NCBI RefSeq assembly: GCF_009914755.1
Contig: NC_060925.1
Reading direction: 5' to 3' (one strand)
Length of the DNA: 64,000 nt
DNA from: the human T2T-CHM13v2.0 reference genome, Homo sapiens
Part shown: in pieces, positions 30,041 through 61,061 of the stretch
How positions within the stretch are numbered: position 1 is the stretch's first letter
Layout of the letters: each line of letters starts with the position of its first letter
Program-made: the position numbers and the translations under genes
Notes under the pieces: generated by a model
What the model saw: only the letters and a program-made list of their open reading frames with translations
The model's database searches: none
What the model was told of the DNA's origin: nothing

Positions 30041-30746
<706 letters not shown>

Positions 30747-31549
30747 TAGATTTCTAACTGGTGTCTCTGCACCCCTCTGGCCCTTTATAATCCATAAGGA
30801 GCCAAATGGTTTATTTTAAAAACATATATCAGATCACATCAAATTCCTGTTTAAAAGCATCAGTGGCTTCCCGCCACACTTAGAATAAAATCCAAATTCC
30901 TTTCTATGGTCTTCAAGGCCCTATCCCTCTGTCCTCGTGTCACTGTCCATGTGGTATCACCGTGGTCACCTTGCCTTCAATTTCCTTCTAGCACCGTTGG
31001 GCTCTTTTTTGCCTTAGAGCCCTTCAATCTTCCTATGGCTGGCTCCTTTCAGGCATTTCATTTTCAGCTCACATTTCTGTTTTGGTTTTCCATAGCACTC
31101 ACCACCACCTAAAATTATAATAGTTAACAACTTTATTACTCATTTCTTGTCTTCCCGTATAAGATGGAAATTGACAGCAAGGACTTTGTTCTGTCCTGTT
31201 TACTATTTTACCCCTAGTTCAGAGATCAGTGCCCAACACACACGGGGCACTCAGTAAACACTGCGGAATAAACAGGTTGTGCCATGAAGCTCCCAGTCTT
31301 CAGTTCGTACAGACAAGGGACAGAGGTGCACAGACTGTAGCAGAAAAGCTCCAGCCCTTCCAAAGCTTATGGCAAGATCCCGACCTGAGAGAGTGCTGGT
31401 GGAGGCTCTCCTATCGGTAGAGGCCCTACACCCAACCTTGCCTCTCTCTCCAGCCTCGCCTCTCTCTCCAGCCTCCTCCTGGCTGGAGTTGGAGACCTGG
31501 GTGTCCTCAGTCCCCACTTGGGTGAAACAGTTGCTCAGACTGAGGGGTG

Positions 31550-31845
31550 GAATGGGTCGGTTGGGTGGGCGGACCAAATTCCTTTAAGAAGCGTTCAAGG
31601 CCTGAAGTGGCTGTCCGTGAGGCTGCCTTGGTTGGGGCATGGTGAGGGTGGGTGGCAGCCTGGGGCAGGGCTGCGAGGGCGGCGCAGGGCGGGACGGGTG
31701 GGGCCTGACCCCGCCCCTTGGCGCAGCTGTAAATAGGTAAATAGAAGGTGATTGTGGCGTGGCGATGTACCGATACCCGCCTGCGACGCCGTGGTGGCTG
31801 GTTCCCTGTCTCTTCAGTAGAGAGTCTAGACCCCACCCAGTCTTC
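31550..31845 (+). promoter_or_regulatory. KLF17: KLF17 promoter / CpG-rich 5' region
   Basis: GC/KLF boxes (gggcggg 31687, gggtggggc 31696, ccccgcccc 31709), E-box cagctg, and tandem GTAAATA (31729-35, 31737-43) at a TATA-like position. CpG-rich to ~32000. Confidence 0.75.
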
Positions 31846-31926
31846 ATGTACGGCCGACCGCAGGCTGAGATGGAACAGGAGGCTGGGGAGCTGAGCCGGT
31901 GGCAGGCGGCGCACCAGGCTGCCCAG
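31846..31926 (+). CDS. KLF17: KLF17 coding exon 1 (MYGRPQAEMEQEAGELSRWQAAHQAAQ)
   Basis: Recognised KLF17 N-terminus; donor cag|gtgagt, phase 0. Confidence 0.95.
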
Positions 31927-32047
31927 GTGAGTCAGGTGCCAGCCCCTGGCAGGCCGGGCGGGCCCAGGCTAGGGGGCGGCGGGGAGGGGAGGCCTTGGAG
32001 GAGAGGTGAGGCGGAGGGAAGCAGAAACCCGAGGGGTAGAAATCCGA

Positions 32048-32180
32048 GGGGAGGGGTGGCAAAGGAAGGAATGGGAGATTGGGGAGGGGTTGCAAAGGGA
32101 GGGATGGGAGATTGGGGAGGGGTTGCAAAGGGAGGGATGGGAGACTGGGGAGGGATTGGAAAGGGAGGGTTGTGAGATTG
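32048..32180 (+). repeat. G-rich 33-bp tandem repeat, ~4 copies
   Basis: Unit ggggaggggttgcaaagggagggatgggagatt; the ORF track shows GGVAKGGMGDW-type repeats. Confidence 0.9.
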
Positions 32181-34031
32181 AGGGTGTAAATCATACGTCG
32201 TTTATTCCAACAATGTTCGCCCAGCAGTAGAGCTTGTGTTGGCCGCGTGGCGGGTAAGAGGGTTCTAGGCAACTTTCTGGTGAGGGACTTGAGTAGGCAG
32301 GACAGCAAAGACCAAGTTAGGAAGTGAGCAGGAAACAACAGGAAAAAAAAAAAAAAACCCCAAAAATGTTAATTGGAGCCCTACTAAGTGGTAGGCTTTT
32401 CCCAGACCCTGGAAATACAATGATGAATTTACCATGAAACAGATATATATAAAATTGTATGAATAAATCGTTAACTGAATGATTGGAATTGTACAGCGTT
32501 ACATGAAGAAGAAGTCAGGGGCGCGTGGGAGCAGATACCAGAGGTGTTTGACCCGATTTGGGAGGCTTAGGAGACAGCTGAGACTCTGTTCTGGGACTAA
32601 AGAACCCGTCAGGTGAAAGGTTCCCAGGTCTGAGACCACAGGCTGCATGCTTCCTCTTAGGAGGAACTGAAAGACCAGGGCCTAGACAGTGATGGAAGGG
32701 TGGCCCCAGGGACACCATTGAGATCATTCAGGGCTTGTTTATTCCAAGAACAGTGGGAAGCCATTGATGAGTTTAAACATAATCTGTCTCAATTAGATTT
32801 GCATTTTCAAAGGAGTGCCCTGGTGGATGTGGGCTGGATTCAAGGCAACAGTTAGAAAGCTTTTGTGATAATCCAGGTGAGAATTCAAATGGCGGCCTAC
32901 CTGCAGAAGTGAGAGTGGAGATGGAGAAGCTAAATATATCATAGATTGTGGAGATGTTTTGGAGGCAGAGACCACAATCATTGGTCCCCGGGTGGTGAGG
33001 GAGACATCTAGAGTAACAGATTTCTTGCTTGCACAATTGGGTGACAATAGTGACATTTTCTGAGAGAGAGTGAAGGATGAGATGGACAAGATTAATTTGT
33101 TGTTTGAGGGAGGTGGGCAAAGATGCTAGTGAATTTTGGCCATAGTCCATTAGAAGAGCATGTGGGCCATCCGAAAGGACTCAAACAATAGGTAGCTGGA
33201 AAATTCAGGAGCCATCTTCGCCAGAGCGAAGATTCCAGATTTAGGAATAGTTGGACTGTAAACAGAAACAAAACCACTGGCATGGGGAAGCTTGCCCAGA
33301 GAGAGCAGGGAAAGGGAAATCTGCAAAAGAAACTGTGAAGGAGGGGGTCTGAGAGAAGGGAAGGAGAAAAACTTGGAAAGTGTGGCCATGCGTGTTAGAG
33401 AGGCCAAGCATTCTAAGAAGGGTGTGGCCAGTGGTCGTATAAGCTCCTGAGAGTTCAAGCGAGGAGTCTGGAAAGTGCTGCTTGGTCATAGTGGGATGGA
33501 AGTCATCAGTGGTGACCTTTATGAAAGCTGGTTCTGTGGAGAGATAGAGGCCAGAGCAAATTTGGGAGACTCATAAGGCAAAGTAGTGGTGAAGGCATGT
33601 TTAGACAACTTAATTTGCCATGAAGGACTGGGAAAACAAGAGGGCCATTGCTGAGAGTTAGGGAGGAGAGGCTGAGCACCCCAGAGGTGCCCACCCAATA
33701 GTCATTTACCTAGTTCCTATTATATGTCTGTCTTATGCTAGTTGCTGAGCATATAGTGGTAAATAAAACAGATAAGGCTGGGCATGGTGGCTCACACCTG
33801 TAGTCCCAGCAGCCCAGGAGGCTGAAGCAGAAGGCTCGTTTGAGCTCAGGAGTTTTAGGCTGTGGTCCACAACGATCACACCTGGGCATAGCCACTGCAC
33901 TTCAGCCTGGGCAACATAGTGAGATCCTGTCTCTAAAATTAATTAAATAAAAAATAAAACAAGATCTTCCCAACTCTTCTAGAGTTTTTTTTAAAAAATG
34001 AACATTTTTCTCTATAGCCAAAACCACATAA

Positions 34032-45696: not shown

Positions 45697-48095
45697 GTCC
45701 CTGGACTACAAAGCACCAGATATTAAGTGGCCTATCTTTCCTTGCTCTCCCTTGGGGTTAAGGGGATAATGACTATCTTGGCAAACCAGCCAGGTAGTTT
45801 AGAACCTCATATTTAGACTCGGCAGGCTGTTTTACTCCAGGAAATTGATAGAGAGAAAGGAACTTGGCCAAGCTATCAAGTGCAGATCTAGAATCCCAAC
45901 CAGGATCTGTCTGCCCCAGAGGTGGTCTCTTCCGTAAGAAGATGGTGCCTTCTATGGGTGTTTCCTGAACGAGGCTGGTGCCAAGCACAGAGAGATGAAT
46001 CAGAGCTGGTTTCTGTGCTCAAGGGACCGTCTTGATCTGGGGGCTCAGAGGTCCACCTCGGTACAGTAGCCATGGGGAAGAGGAGCCCCTAATGGAAGGG
46101 TCAGAAAGGCTTTCTGGAGGAGGTAATCCCTGGGCCCAGTAAGAGTGTAACACCTAGTAATCCCTCAAATTTTGAAATAAACTGAACAGGTGAATGAAGA
46201 AGGAAGAGGATTCCAGGCTGAGAGCACTGGACGTGGCAACTGTTCAGAGGAGAGGCAGTCTTCAAGTTCTACATTCATTCAGAAAAATGTTTTTTGAGCC
46301 TACAATACTGAGCGCAACAAGGCTGTGGAGACCCATGGTGAGGAGCATGGAGTTAACTAAAGGATGTGTCAGGGAAGAAAGACTTCTCAAGGAGGTGCCT
46401 CCATCAGACCCAAAGGACTCATGGGGGCTAGCTGCACCTCACATTTCTTGGACATATACCGTTGGACATGTCTATCTTCTGGAAACTATGGCATGGACAG
46501 TAAGGATTCAGAAGTGCATGAAGGCACCCTGCCTCTGCAGAGCAGAAAGATCATAGACAACATTTATGAATGTGCCCAGTGCTGCCAAGAAGAGAAGCCG
46601 GTCCTCTGCAGGCTCAAGCCTATCTGGGCCTCTGGGGAAGCCCCACAGCCTTGGCTGTGCCTGCCCCTGCCCTCTCACCCCTACCCTGACCTTGTCCTAC
46701 TTCACTGCCTTTGTCTGTGTTACTAGTGGCCCCAGTATACCTGGGATGGACATCCAGGTGCCCTTCATCCAAGCTCCTATGTGAGGGGAATGGACATTAT
46801 TAAAAGAACAGGGGCAGAAGTGGCTCATTTATGACCCATTCACTAGCCCCAGGGATTGAAGTCTTGGGTACTCAAAGTGTCTTTCTACCAGGGCACCAGA
46901 TCCCTTCCATGGAGCAGGTCATCTCGGGTTCACTGGGCCAGGGATGGTCTCTGTTCCCCAGCCCACCTGGCTCACACACAGCCTCATGGGTAGGGTCAGC
47001 AAACCAGATGGCTTGTTGTTGGAATGTAGGATGAGAGGCCTGCTTGGTGACCTAGCATTTTCACCAAGAAGTGGACGTGGAGAGGACCAGAGTGATCAAG
47101 GGTGTATGATGTGCACTACAATGGTGGGCAAAACAGGCTCCTGCTCTTGTGGAGGTCACAATCTAGCGGAGAAAGGATGTTACTAGAAGTACACAAATTG
47201 GGCCCGGCGCGATGGCTCACGCCTGTAATCCCAGCACTTTTGGAGGCCGAGGCAGGCGGATCATTTGAGGTTAGAGATTCGAGACCAGCCGGGCCAACAT
47301 GGTGAAACCCCATCTCTACAAAAAATACAAAAATTAGCCTGGCATATGGCGGGTACCGTAATCCTAGCTACTCGGGAGACTGACGGGAGAATCGCTTGAA
47401 CCCAGGAGGCGGAGGTTGCAGTGAGCTCAGATCTCACCATTGCACTCCAGCCTGGGCGACTGAGCGAGACTATCTCAAAACAATCAAAACAAAAAAGACC
47501 TGTGGACTCTAGTAGATTTTGAATCCTGCCTCTGCCATTTCCTGGCTATGAGGTGTCTTGAGAAATTTACTTGTCACTCTTGCTTCTGATAGTAAAGGGG
47601 ATGGTGCGATAGATTCAAGATGGAGAGATAAGGTTAAGTGTTTTCTTTGGCTGCAACATGGAGATTAGATTAGAGCAAGGATGTAAGGGAGAGGAAGGGA
47701 CATAGCAGTATTTCAGGTGAGAGTCAAGGTGGCTTTGGCTAGGGTGTGAGAGTGGAGGTAGGGAGAAGTAGGAAAGTGATAGTTAACTGGATTTGTTAGG
47801 TGAGGGTGAGGCCAAGGGTGACTTCCAGGTTCCTGACTTGTGTTATAAGTAACACAGAAGAAGAATGGATGAACTTGATTCGTTTTCCATTGATTGTGAT
47901 ATCTATCATACCTGCAAAAAATATTTTGTATATATCCAATTTAATAATAAATGCACTCATGTTAGGAAGGTCAAAAAAAAGGAAAAAAGAAAAATAATAA
48001 AAAATAATAAAAATCCTTAGGATAACTTGAGGCCAGGAGTTTGAGACCAGTGTGACCTTGTCTCTGTAAAAAATAAAATTAAAAGAAAAAGAAGG
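45697..48095 (+). other. KLF17: KLF17 terminal non-coding exon (3'UTR), containing an Alu at ~47201-47495
   Basis: Donor tag|gtcagt right after the stop; strong acceptor cttcttctcctcccaccttccttag|gtcc; AATAAA cluster at 47946-48077. The 3' end is approximate. Confidence 0.7.
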
Positions 48096-50769: not shown

Positions 50770-50988
<219 letters not shown>

Positions 50989-51619
50989 TCATACATCAGG
51001 GTGAGGTAGGGCAGGGACATTGAAAGTGAACAAGAAAACGTTTTTGAACAAGTTGGAGTGGGAGAGGGAGAGCCAGAGGAGACGGGAGTGGTGGAGGTGA
51101 GTGAAGGAGGAGGGGAATGAGGGCCGCAAAAGCTGGAGAGACAAGAGGAAAACTGTGAAGAAGGGAAGAAGAGGAAAGGAAGAAGAAAAAAAACAAACAG
51201 GAGGAGAGACAGTTATTGGCAGGCAAGTTAGTGGGGGGAATAAGGAGGATGAGGGAAGTGGGGCCTGGGGGCCCTGTCACTACGAAGTGACGGTCCCAGT
51301 AGAAATAGCATCAAGAACATCTACCTGCAAGAGGCCAAAGAAATCCCTCCACTTATTCCCATCAAACCAGCAGTCAACACCACTAAAGGCTATAGCCAGC
51401 CTGGCTCTGGTCCAGGACTAGAGCCTGTCCCTGGTCCAGGACTAGAGCCTGTCCCTAGGACTGCTTTATCTACCCTTCTGAAGGTGCCAACCTTTTCTAT
51501 TATAGAATTTTTTGAATCCCTGGCTTAAAGGAAGTGGCAGCAATCTCAAATGCTTCCGGGGCTTTGTAAAGGCACAAATCTGTAGCCACTTGCCCCTCAC
51601 CCCTGTTTCTGGGCCCTCA

Positions 51620-54586
<2,967 letters not shown>

Positions 54587-55203: not shown

Positions 55204-55475
55204 ACTATGGACTGAATGTTTGTGTTTCTCCAAATTTCATATGCTAAAACTGAATTTCCAGTGTGATTGTATTAGAAGGTAGCGCCTTTGGGAGATGATT
55301 AGGTCATGGAGACAGAACCTTCAAGAATGAGATGAGTGTTCTTCTAAGGGGCTGAGGGTCAGAGTTCTTTACTTCTACCAAGTGAGGACACAGCTAAAAG
55401 GTGCCATCTATGAATCAGAAAGTATGCCCTTACCAGACACCGAATCTACCAGCTCCTGGACAGAACAGACTAAGA
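55204..55475 (+). mobile_element. MaLR LTR (MLT1A/MST-like) in KLF18 intron 1
   Basis: tactatggactgaatgtttgtgtttctccaaatttcatatgct..gcctttgggagatgattaggtcatg..aggacacagc..gccatctatgaatcagaaag..cagacaccgaatct. Confidence 0.8.
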
Positions 55476-59465: not shown

Positions 59466-59895
59466 CTATGCCTCCTTCTCTTGATCTCTAATAATTCAAC
59501 CCAACCCACCCAGGCCCCTCTGACTCATGGGCCTAGCGTTCCTTGTATACTTCCATGAGACTTCGACCAGACCACGATCTCGTCCTGGGCTCCTGCCAAC
59601 ATGATAGAAAGACCTTCGGGTGCCATCGAGAGACCCCCAGGATCACAACCACAGCCTTCTCTGCAGGCCCCGCGTCTGTCTGATGAAAGGGTCTGTCTGA
59701 TGAAAGGCATGCCCTGCGGAGGGCAGGCTCGTGGAAGTAAAAATGGTCCTCAATAAATGAACCGTTTCAGACACTTCTCTGTCCTCCCCTATTAGCGGGC
59801 TCCCTTGCTAGGATTCTGGACGCCTACATCTTTGAATTTCTGACCTACCACTCCATGACACCGACCTTCGCCCTTTCATTTGGAGATAGACTTAC

Positions 59896-59910
59896 CAGAA
59901 ATTGATCCAT
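59896..59910 (-). CDS. KLF18: Predicted KLF18 first coding micro-exon (MDQFL)
   Basis: gccatATGGATCAATTTCTG|gtaagt has a consensus donor in phase 0, in frame with the acceptor at 54559. It is the first ATG downstream of the TATA box. Confidence 0.7.
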
Positions 59911-59959
59911 ATGGCAGGCCGGGCACTTTGCTACTTGCAGACGGAGAGGAACACACTCT

Positions 59960-60190
59960 GAAACTTCTGGGCGCCTTCTGGGGCCTGGGCTTTTATACAG
60001 CCTGGCTCGGATGCACCCAGGTCACTGCTTTGCGTCTTTGGTCGGCCACACCCCTCGGGGCGGAGCCCCAGCGACCTACCTACCGCCTGTATAGGCAGAG
60101 TGATTGAGTTACCTACCAGAGGCCTCTGGACATTAATGCAATCACTTCCCCTGTTCTCATTGTGCAGGGAAGCAATTGGCATTAATTAGC
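59960..60190 (-). promoter_or_regulatory. KLF18: Predicted KLF18 promoter: TATA box, KLF and GC boxes, DUX4-type motifs
   Basis: TATAAAA 59997-59991(-); GGCCACACCC 60044-53; GGGGCGGAGC 60057-66; TAACTCAATCA 60111-60101(-); TAATGCAATCA 60134-44(+). CpGs are retained locally. Confidence 0.75.
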
Positions 60191-61061
60191 GAATTTTACC
60201 CTCACCAGTATTAGGAGGTGGATTTTATCATTGTTATCATGTAAAGCGAAAACTGAGACTCAGAGATATTAAGTATTTGCAGGTCACAGAATCAAACACT
60301 GATAGTAGATTTGAACTCAAACGGTTTTGCTCTTATGATCTGAGTCCTTAAACACACTAGAGGCATCAGATTCAATCAGCTGTTCACTTATGCAGACTCC
60401 ACCTCTTTGGCAGCTGTAAACTTAATCAAATTACTTCTACTGTGAAATCCTGATAATTCCATCAGTTTACCCTGGAAACTTAATGGCTTTTTTTTTCTGT
60501 GGTTTTGACTTATTTACTTATTTATTATTTATTTATTTATTTTATCTTGCATAATTATCTTGATAATTCCATCAGGTTACCCTAGAAATGATCGTGGTAC
60601 TTTTTTCTCTTTCTTTCTTCCTTCTTTCCTTTTTTCCTTCCTTCCTTCCTTCCTCTTTCTTTCTTTTTCTTTCTCTCTCTCTTTCTTTTTGGCTGTGGTT
60701 TTTACTTACTATTTTTAATTTTTTTGCCACCTATTTATTTTTGAGACAGCGTCTTACTCTGTTCCTCAAGCTGGAGTGTAGTGGTGCAATCATGGCTCAC
60801 TGTGGCTAATTTTTAAATTCTTTGTAGAGACGGAGTCTCATCATGTTGCCCAGGCTGCTTTCAAACTCCTGGACTCGAGCGGTCCTCCCACCTCAGCCTC
60901 CTAAAGTGCAAAGATTACAGGCATGAGCCACCATGCCCGGCCTTCATTTTGAATGTAAAAAAAAAAAAAACCAGATAATTTCATTTTACATACATAGCAC
61001 GTTCATCCACTCATTGTTGATAAAATTTTAGAAATATTTGCTATACAAATTTAGTATTTGA

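What the first reader, a model, noticed from the sequence alone, without database searches (positions are those of the whole stretch)
60040..60580. Cluster of DUX4-type motifs plus KLF boxes at the predicted KLF18 promoter: candidate DUX4-KLF17/KLF18 feed-forward circuit
Seen: a perfect TAAYYYAATCA match (TAACTCAATCA, 60111-60101) and a 1-mismatch TAATGCAATCA (60134-44). Also AGATTCAATCA (~60368-78), a paired-type palindrome TAATCAAATTA (60423-33) and two TAATTCCATCA (60454-64, 60564-74). Between these and the TATA box lie a canonical KLF site (GCCACACCC) and a GC box. Established: DUX4 binds TAAYYYAATCA and drives zygotic genome activation and FSHD genes; KLF17 is a preimplantation/naive factor; KLF fingers bind CACCC. 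Inference: DUX4 fires KLF18, and KLF17/KLF18 then sustain or restrain it through the CACCC box.
Basis: partly seen in the sequence, partly recalled or inferred. Interest (0 to 1): 0.8.

Follow-up and report, generated by a model that had tools for sequence, protein, structure and literature searches.

The report
Published DUX4-responsive upstream promoter of KLF18
This stretch is the DUX4-bound upstream promoter that switches on the embryonic gene KLF18, a link already shown experimentally and published, while the added idea that KLF proteins feed back on it through the CACCC box finds no support in the published data.

Summary
The cluster exceeds chance: 5 hits with at most one mismatch, against 0.15-0.28 expected from local shuffles. 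On the minus strand the layout is two perfect DUX4 sites (60101-11, 60134-44), a GC box, a CACCC box, TATAAAAG (59997-59990), then a short exon ending in a GTAAGT donor. This lies 5.4 kb upstream of the RefSeq KLF18 model.

Published data explain it. Young et al. 2013 list a DUX4 ChIP-seq peak with height 362 and 5 motifs, which I map to window 59853-60568. Hamm et al. 2026 show a DUX4-induced KLF18 transcript starting at a DUX4 site in an upstream MIR, with two unannotated exons, and an ordered DUX4→KLF18→KLF17 feed-forward network.

The KLF-feedback half is not supported:
- None of the 958 KLF18-FLAG peaks lies at the promoter.
- KLF17 or KLF18 overexpression leaves endogenous KLF18 at about 0 counts.
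- KLF18 knockouts raise KLF18 mRNA only by log2 0.42-0.55.

Verdict: a real and functional element that is already known. Interest is low.

The parts
60101..60111 (-). DUX4 site 1, TAACTCAATCA. It is a perfect match to TAAYYYAATCA, about -133 to -143 from the predicted TSS.
60134..60144 (+). DUX4 site 2, TAATGCAATCA. It is a perfect match to TAAYBBAATCA and one mismatch from TAAYYYAATCA, about -166 to -176 from the predicted TSS.
60099..60146 (.). Imperfect palindrome that places the two DUX4 sites as inverted arms around a perfect 14-bp palindromic core, CCAGAGGCCTCTGG.
   Evidence: (74% self reverse-complement match over 47 bp)
60057..60066 (+). GC box GGGGCGGAGC (SP/KLF type), about -89 to -98.
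60045..60053 (+). CACCC-type KLF box GCCACACCC, about -77 to -85.
59990..59997 (-). TATA box, TATAAAAG on the minus strand.
59896..59968 (-). Candidate unannotated KLF18 exon 1. The TSS at about 59968 is inferred from TATA spacing. It holds an ATG at 59910-59908 and five codons (MDQFL), and the donor GTAAGT follows at 59895-59890.
   Evidence: donor score 6.6. The TSS is not measured here. Hamm et al. report an unannotated first exon.
60368..60378 (+). AGATTCAATCA, a degenerate DUX4-like motif with 2 mismatches.
60418..60433 (+). Composite of AAACTTAATCA (1 mismatch) overlapping the paired-type palindrome TAATCAAATTA. It lies within 7 bp of where Young's best-scoring 17-mer maps.
60454..60464 (+). 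TAATTCCATCA, copy a (1 mismatch), in a local direct repeat.
60564..60574 (+). TAATTCCATCA, copy b (1 mismatch), a duplicate of copy a.
59853..60568 (.). Footprint of the published DUX4 ChIP-seq peak hg19 chr1:44612645-44613360 (height 362, 5 motifs) after my coordinate calibration.
   Evidence: The mapping assumes no large indel between 55.3 and 60.6 kb.
60140..60370 (+). MIR-like SINE remnant with approximate bounds. The label comes from two papers and my recall, and no tool here confirmed it.
   Evidence: papers. (my tests) were inconclusive.
54511..54559 (-). 5' end of the large KLF18 coding exon as it would be spliced. The acceptor tttttttgcag precedes base 54559, and 48 nt are open in frame up to the annotated ATG at 54511.
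   Evidence: acceptor score 7.2
55264..55306 (-). Second DUX4-bound site of the locus. Two 1-mismatch motifs (TAATACAATCA, TGACCTAATCA) lie in a region that Young et al. label MLT1A0 (peak height 101, 2 motifs).

Best explanation
The region is the DUX4-responsive upstream promoter of KLF18.

Shown in published data: DUX4 occupies the region, and KLF18 mRNA goes from zero to high within hours of DUX4 induction. The transcript starts next to the DUX4 site and carries unannotated exons upstream of the RefSeq/GENCODE model. KLF18 then binds the GC/CACCC-rich KLF17 promoter and turns KLF17 on. DUX4 and KLF18 together drive a subset of 8-cell genes in a feed-forward network.

Inferred from the sequence: DUX4 binds mainly the two perfect double-homeobox sites, which sit as inverted arms of a 47-bp palindrome at about -133 to -176. 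It probably also binds weaker sites around 60368-60433. From there it activates a compact core promoter (GC box, CACCC box, TATAAAAG) that starts transcription on the minus strand near 59968. A roughly 73-nt first exon ends at a GTAAGT donor at 59895. The GC and CACCC boxes most likely serve generic SP/KLF proximal-promoter factors rather than a KLF17/KLF18 autoregulatory loop.
For: Sequence: motif positions and promoter order come.

Occupancy: Young et al. 2013 Table S1 (read as a supplement) lists a DUX4 peak at hg19 chr1:44612645-44613360 with height 362 and 5 motifs. In the part I read (part 6 of 400, chr1 44.5-51.5 Mb) it is the tallest peak (next is 344) and the only one with more than 3 motifs. 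Calibration places it at window 59853-60568. Two anchor pairs give an hg19-hg38 shift of 465671 and 465672.

Transcription: Hamm et al. [quoted passage not shown] It has unannotated first and second exons, is induced by 4 h, and precedes KLF17. Table S2 gives KLF18 counts of 0/0/0 without dox and 936/1045/992 with dox (log2FC 12.07).

Independent support: a figure legend in preprint 10.1101/2024.04.18.589901 (one passage seen) describes DUX4 ChIP binding to a MIR in the KLF18 promoter region.

Consistent contrast: the KLF17 promoter (30752-31926) has 0 DUX4-like hits at up to 1 mismatch and 5 CACCC/GC-type boxes. That matches Hamm's statement of no adjacent DUX4 peak at KLF17 and a KLF18-FLAG peak at the KLF17 TSS.
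Against: 1. No paper text I could read gives the coordinates of the TSS or exons. The match between their MIR site and 60.1-60.4 kb therefore rests on my coordinate mapping of Young's peak.
2. Young's table labels the best motif of this peak 'Unique', not MIR. That motif maps near 60408-60424, with a 7-bp mismatch to the nearest motif, rather than onto the two perfect sites. So the operative site or sites are not settled.
3. Young's expression test for this peak ±1 kb was 'Inf' with FDR 0.119, which was not significant in their conservative analysis.
4. My three attempts to show MIR homology with tools found nothing.
5. No motif-mutation or reporter test of this promoter appears in the Hamm text I read.
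Confidence: 0.88

Rival explanations
1. KLF17 and/or KLF18 act back on this promoter through the GCCACACCC box (and the GC box), either sustaining it (positive feedback) or restraining it (negative feedback).
For: The box is canonical and sits at a typical proximal position, about -77 to -85, next to a GC box. KLF18 mRNA is modestly higher in both frameshift knockouts (log2 +0.55, padj 1e-15; log2 +0.42, padj 1e-9; Hamm Table S2). That is compatible with weak restraint by KLF18 or by its target KLF17. Hamm's discussion raises possible suppressive, incoherent feed-forward effects in general terms.
Against: None of the 958 conservative KLF18-FLAG ChIP peaks lies at the promoter (hg38 about 44.1471 Mb). 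The only peaks at the locus are at the KLF17 TSS and two in the KLF18 gene body. Without DUX4, endogenous KLF18 stays at 0/4.97/0 counts with KLF17 overexpression and 0/0/0 with KLF18 overexpression (GFP 0/0/0; Table S4). KLF18 is not needed for its own induction (Table S2). The knockout effect is below the authors' own threshold and could reflect clonal differences. One CACCC box is not beyond chance. I looked for no KLF17 ChIP data.
Confidence: 0.12
2. The distal motifs (the AAACTTAATCA/TAATCAAATTA composite, TAATTCCATCA x2, AGATTCAATCA) are used by other DUX4-induced paired-like homeobox factors (DUXA, LEUTX, TPRX-type). These would prolong or shut off KLF18 after the DUX4 pulse. This adds to DUX4 firing and does not replace it.
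For: TAATCAAATTA has the paired-type palindromic form TAATNNNATTA (form recalled; position). Hamm et al. found paired-like homeobox motifs, including DUX4 and DUXA, enriched in their ChIP data set. The ChIP peak is unusually wide at 716 bp and spans these motifs.
Against: I saw no binding or perturbation data for these factors at this locus. A wide peak is explained equally well by several DUX4 sites. The two TAATTCCATCA copies come from a local duplication next to low-complexity DNA.
Confidence: 0.2
3. The operative DUX4 promoter of KLF18 is the MLT1A0 LTR at about 55.3 kb, and the 60.1-kb cluster is only a bound bystander or enhancer.
For: Young's Table S1 shows a DUX4 peak there (height 101, 2 motifs) with log2FC 10.24 and FDR 6.8e-20 for the peak ±1 kb. 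MaLR LTRs are the classic DUX4-created promoters (Young 2013 abstract). The LTR-like sequence runs in the KLF18 orientation.
Against: That ±1 kb window overlaps the 5' end of the large coding exon (from 54559 down), so its reads need not start there. Hamm et al. and the preprint both name a MIR, not an LTR, as the bound element at the TSS. The 60.1-kb peak is 3.6 times taller. A TATA box plus a short exon with a strong donor lies directly downstream of the 60.1-kb sites.
Confidence: 0.06
4. The motif cluster is a chance product of AT-rich, SINE-derived DNA and has no function.
For: The region has 39% GC against 44% for the window. One perfect match is expected by chance in 64 kb. Two motifs are a duplication.
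Against: Zero of 2000 local shuffles reach the observed cluster. There is a strong published ChIP peak and DUX4-dependent transcription.
Confidence: 0.02

Closest known systems
DUX4-induced alternative upstream TSS of human KLF18 at a MIR element (Hamm et al., Genes Dev 2026, PMC13224869)
   Same: Same locus, same strand logic, a DUX4 ChIP site next to the TSS, unannotated upstream exons, and the DUX4→KLF18→KLF17 order. I take it to be the same element.
   Different: The text I could read gives no base-level motif map, no TSS coordinates and no test of the promoter's own GC/CACCC boxes. This report adds the motif map. The palindromic arrangement of the two perfect sites and the core-promoter layout come from sequence only.
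DUX4-bound retroelement promoters (MaLR/ERVL LTRs; Young et al., PLoS Genet 2013, PMC3836709)
   Same: Multi-motif DUX4 peaks that create alternative upstream promoters for genes. Peaks with more motifs are taller and more often activate transcription. This peak appears in their Table S1.
   Different: The flanking repeat is reported as a MIR SINE, not an LTR. Young's best motif here is labelled 'Unique'. The TATA, GC and CACCC core lies outside the SINE-like stretch.
Mouse Dux → Zfp352 / Gm12845 (KLF18-derived genes)
   Same: A DUX-family factor drives KLF18-family genes at genome activation. Their expression is reduced in Dux knockout embryos (Hamm section 9; the origin of Zfp352 from KLF18 mRNA is in Pei & Grishin 2013).
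   Different: Zfp352 is a retrocopy at another locus with a different promoter.
ZSCAN4 promoter, a classic direct DUX4 target
   Same: A DUX4-bound promoter that DUX4 alone activates, without KLF18 binding (Hamm).
   Different: A ZSCAN4 reporter has been tested. In the text I read, no reporter of the KLF18 upstream promoter is described.

Membership tests
Direct DUX4 target promoter | One or more matches to the DUX4 double-homeobox motif near the TSS | tested here: met
   Two perfect TAAYBBAATCA matches at 60101-11 and 60134-44, about -133 to -176 from the predicted TSS. The cluster is beyond local chance.
Direct DUX4 target promoter | DUX4 occupancy in ChIP-seq | tested here: met
   This is a look-up of published data, not a new experiment. 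Young 2013 Table S1 lists a peak at hg19 chr1:44612645-44613360 with height 362, which I map to window 59853-60568. Hamm text and a preprint legend agree.
Direct DUX4 target promoter | DUX4-dependent transcription starting next to the site | tested here: met
   Published: Hamm section 5. Table S2 gives counts of 0/0/0 rising to 936/1045/992 with dox. The exact TSS coordinate was not available to me. The sequence shows TATA plus an exon with a donor directly downstream.
Direct DUX4 target promoter | Loss of induction when the motifs are mutated | not testable with these tools
   This needs a reporter or genome edit. None is described for this promoter in the Hamm text I read.
MIR (SINE)-derived regulatory element | Sequence homology of the bound DNA to MIR | tested here: inconclusive
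   Single-sequence blastn and nhmmer against the window found nothing. The same searches against 8 loci chosen from Young's MIR/MIRb-labelled peaks also found nothing. The label rests on two papers and on my recall of MIR.
KLF autoregulatory loop at the KLF18 promoter | KLF-type box in the proximal promoter | tested here: met
   GCCACACCC at 60045-53 and GGGGCGGAGC at 60057-66.
KLF autoregulatory loop at the KLF18 promoter | KLF18 (or KLF17) occupancy of that box | tested here: not met
   Zero of 958 KLF18-FLAG peaks map to the promoter. The locus peaks are at the KLF17 TSS and in the KLF18 gene body. KLF17 occupancy was not examined.
KLF autoregulatory loop at the KLF18 promoter | KLF18 mRNA depends on, or responds to, KLF17/KLF18 | tested here: not met
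   Overexpressing either factor leaves endogenous KLF18 at about 0 counts. Knockout changes it by only log2 +0.42 to +0.55. Positive feedback is excluded in myoblasts. Weak negative feedback is not excluded.
DUX4-initiated feed-forward network (DUX4→KLF18; DUX4+KLF18→targets) | The upstream factor induces the intermediate, and both are needed at shared targets | tested here: met
   Published conclusion of Hamm et al., read but not re-derived here.

The most novel reading that the evidence does not exclude
The promoter is more than a DUX4 on-switch. Its CACCC/GC pair could mediate weak negative autoregulation by KLF18 or KLF17, given that KLF18 mRNA rises 1.3-1.5 fold in both knockouts. Its distal paired-type motifs could recruit DUX4-induced homeobox factors. 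Together these would make an incoherent loop that shapes the short KLF18 pulse at genome activation. The palindromic pair of perfect DUX4 sites would be the element that gives KLF18 its early (4 h) response.
Probability: 0.12. Interest if true: 0.45.

Novelty: already known. Interest (0 to 1): 0.22.

Why it matters
KLF18 was long treated as a possible pseudogene with no expression data (Pei & Grishin 2013). It is now a required intermediate of the DUX4 programme in cleavage-stage cells and in FSHD muscle (Hamm 2026). The RefSeq and GENCODE models still lack the upstream promoter and its exons. A base-level map of the DUX4 sites, core promoter and first exon is therefore useful for annotation, reporter design and reading variants at this locus. 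The biology itself, that DUX4 directly fires KLF18 within a feed-forward network, is already in print.

Tried and rejected
1. MIR identity by tools. I ran blastn (word 7) and nhmmer of 60100-60400 against the window. I ran 60120-60385 against eight 4-kb loci fetched at places that Young's table labels MIR/MIRb. I also searched the 600-bp segments cut around the motif hits of seven of these eight loci (L006 was left out) and a window segment, 60051-60450, against each other, and the seven locus segments against the window. None gave a hit at 60.1-60.4 kb. MIR copies are too diverged for single-sequence searches, so the result is inconclusive rather than negative.

2. Copies elsewhere in the genome. 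A whole-genome search of 60090-60400 returned only itself. That search skips common words.

3. Shared ancestry with the KLF17 promoter. There was no significant similarity between 59700-60600 (-) and 30700-32300 (+). The two promoters are separate modules.

4. Exon 2. All 10 candidates printed carry stops in the frame set by exon 1. The scan cannot decide between them.

5. N-terminal extension. The exon-1 ATG would be in frame with the annotated ORF only if exon 1 spliced directly onto the large exon. The open 16 codons and the phase match are easily chance, and the paper reports an intervening exon. I treat the ATG as a probable short upstream ORF.

6. KLF boxes under the gene-body KLF18-FLAG peaks. 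There are none, so those peaks are not motif-explained.

Full report
OBSERVATION.
- TAACTCAATCA at 60111-60101 on the minus strand
- TAATGCAATCA at 60134-60144
- AGATTCAATCA at 60368-60378
- TAATCAAATTA at 60423-60433
- TAATTCCATCA at 60454-60464 and 60564-60574
- GCCACACCC at 60045-60053
- GGGGCGGAGC at 60057-60066
- TATAAAAG on the minus strand at 59997-59990

CHANCE. A single perfect TAAYYYAATCA match in 64 kb means nothing on its own: 0.53 are expected, and 44 of 100 shuffles have at least one. The clustering is what counts.
- Under the ChIP-derived form TAAYBBAATCA (motif recalled), the only two perfect matches in the window are these two, 23 bp apart.
- Five of 16 (YYY) or 5 of 21 (YBB) hits with at most one mismatch lie in 60101-60574.
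- In 2000 dinucleotide shuffles of 60040-60580, none reaches 5 such hits (means 0.15 and 0.28). Only 1 reaches two perfect YBB hits.
- Of 6346 sliding 541-bp windows, only 8 reach five hits, and the five printed all start at 60061-60101.

Two caveats apply. The two TAATTCCATCA copies lie in a local direct repeat of about 29 bp (27 of 29 identical, my count from the two stretches printed), so they are one event. One GCCACACCC is not beyond chance (2 found, 0.40 expected, 5 of 100 shuffles).

ANATOMY. Read on the minus strand, which is the KLF18 strand, the region is a compact promoter. The order is:
- DUX4 site 2 at about -166 to -176
- DUX4 site 1 at about -133 to -143
- GC box at -89 to -98
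- CACCC box at -77 to -85
- TATAAAAG at -22 to -29
- a predicted start near 59968 (inferred from TATA spacing, not measured)

An ATG follows at 59910-59908 with five codons. The exon ends at 59896, before a GTAAGT donor. My rough donor score for it is 6.6, higher than any of the 309 candidate donors in the 5.3 kb downstream (best 5.7).

The two perfect DUX4 sites are inverted arms of an imperfect 47-bp palindrome at 60099-60146, around a perfect 14-bp palindromic core.

This lies 5.4 kb upstream of the 5' end of the RefSeq KLF18 model (54630). On the same strand a strong acceptor (a run of T, then GCAG) precedes base 54559, which is 48 nt before the annotated ATG at 54511.

WHAT IS PUBLISHED. 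Hamm et al. (Genes Dev 2026, PMC13224869) is the main source. I read the outline, sections 5, 8, 9 and 14, passages from other sections, and Tables S2, S3 and S4 in part. They report:
- DUX4 induces KLF18 in myoblasts, iPSCs and hESCs.
[quoted passage not shown] MIR element', with 'unannotated first and second exons'.
- KLF18 rises by 4 h and KLF17 by 8-12 h.
- KLF18 is needed for KLF17 and for a subset of 8-cell genes.
- The whole arrangement is a DUX4 feed-forward network.

Table S2 gives KLF18 counts of 0/0/0 without doxycycline and 936/1045/992 with it.

Other sources agree. [quoted passage not shown] An embryo single-cell study lists KLF18 as a hub factor of the 4-cell module and KLF17 of the 8-cell module (PMC9691860, one table seen).

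TYING THE PAPERS TO THESE BASES. None of the readable text gives coordinates, so I used Young et al. 2013 (PLoS Genet, PMC3836709). Their Table S1 (part 6 of 400 read) re-analyses the same ChIP-seq on hg19. It lists three DUX4 peaks at the locus:
- 44600211-576: L2c, height 57
- 44607824-8265: MLT1A0, height 101, 2 motifs
- 44612645-44613360: height 362, 5 motifs, best motif labelled 'Unique'

I calibrated the coordinates in two independent ways. First, the best-motif cores of the first two peaks fall on window motifs at 47662 and 55296. Second, the ends of ENST00000634670 in Hamm's Table S3 fall on the window's CDS ends. The two anchor pairs imply the same hg19-hg38 shift, 465671 and 465672.

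In the stretch of the table that I read it is the tallest peak (next is 344) and the only one with more than three motifs.

Three points cut against a tidy story:
- The best-scoring 17-mer maps to 60408-60424. That is 7 bp off the AAACTTAATCA/TAATCAAATTA composite, not on the two perfect sites.
- Young's label is 'Unique', not MIR.
- Their expression test for this peak ±1 kb gave 'Inf' with FDR 0.119. A plausible reason is that only a tiny exon lies in that interval.

By recall, the stretch at about 60140-60370 looks MIR-like. My tool tests of that were inconclusive.

THE KLF-FEEDBACK HALF. Hamm's own tables speak against that in myoblasts.
- **Occupancy:** among 958 conservative KLF18-FLAG peaks, the locus has one at the KLF17 TSS and two in the KLF18 gene body (about 51.6-52.0 and 52.35-52.8 kb). 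None lies at hg38 about 44.1471 Mb, where the box maps.
- **Sufficiency:** without DUX4, endogenous KLF18 stays at 0/4.97/0 counts with KLF17 overexpression and 0/0/0 with KLF18 overexpression, against 0/0/0 for GFP (Table S4).
- **Necessity:** in both KLF18 frameshift lines KLF18 mRNA is slightly higher (log2 +0.55 and +0.42; Table S2).

Positive feedback is therefore excluded. Weak restraint remains possible, but the effect is small and confounded by clonal variation. I did not look for KLF17 ChIP data.

The sequence contrast between the two paralog promoters fits the published order. The KLF17 promoter has no DUX4-like hit at up to one mismatch and five CACCC/GC-type boxes. The KLF18 upstream promoter has the DUX4 sites. 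The two share no detectable similarity.

MECHANISM. Shown in print: DUX4 occupies the region, KLF18 is switched on from an upstream start, and KLF18 then activates KLF17 and co-activates a subset of DUX4 targets. Inferred here:
- The palindromic pair at 60099-60146 is the main DUX4 entry point.
- Weaker sites to 60433 widen the peak.
- The GC and CACCC boxes serve general SP/KLF promoter factors.
- Transcription starts near 59968.
- The exon-1 ATG is probably a short upstream ORF. Every exon-2 candidate from my rough scan carries stops in its frame, although a direct splice onto the large exon would be in frame.

VERDICT. Its main interpretation was published in June 2026, and the DUX4 peak has been listed since 2013. 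The remaining novelty is a base-level map and a weak, unproven feedback idea. Novelty: already known. Interest: low.

Noticed in passing
window 59896-59910 (-) and 54511-54559 (-): The candidate exon 1 holds an ATG with five codons ending in phase 0. The 48 nt between the exon-3 acceptor and the annotated KLF18 ATG are open in the same frame, so a direct exon 1 to exon 3 splice would extend the protein at its N-terminus. All exon-2 candidates from a rough scan carry stops, so the ATG is more likely a short upstream ORF.
   Followed up: partly
window 55264-55306 (-): A second DUX4 ChIP peak (Young Table S1: height 101, 2 motifs, MLT1A0, log2FC 10.24) lies in LTR-like sequence oriented like KLF18, 0.7 kb upstream of the large coding exon. 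It could be an enhancer or an alternative promoter.
   Followed up: partly
window 47662-47672 (-): A third DUX4 ChIP peak (Young Table S1: height 57, L2c, log2FC 8.52) maps onto TAATCTAATCT inside the KLF17 3' UTR exon.
   Followed up: no
window about 51600-52040 and 52350-52790: The two KLF18-FLAG ChIP peaks at the KLF18 locus fall in the gene body (the large repeat-bearing exon and its 3' edge), where no CCMCRCCC box occurs. They may reflect a highly transcribed or repetitive region rather than motif-driven binding.
   Followed up: partly
window 50770-54511: The KLF18 gene span is 69-70 bp shorter in this assembly than in hg38/hg19. I infer this from the two coordinate offsets. It is in line with the variable tandem repeats that Hamm et al. 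describe in the large exon.
   Followed up: no
window 60446-60600: A direct repeat of about 29 bp (27 of 29 identical) flanks a T-rich low-complexity stretch, and each copy carries TAATTCCATCA.
   Followed up: yes
window 31563-31716: The KLF17 proximal promoter holds five CACCC/GC-type boxes and no DUX4-like motif. A published KLF18-FLAG peak covers it.
   Followed up: yes
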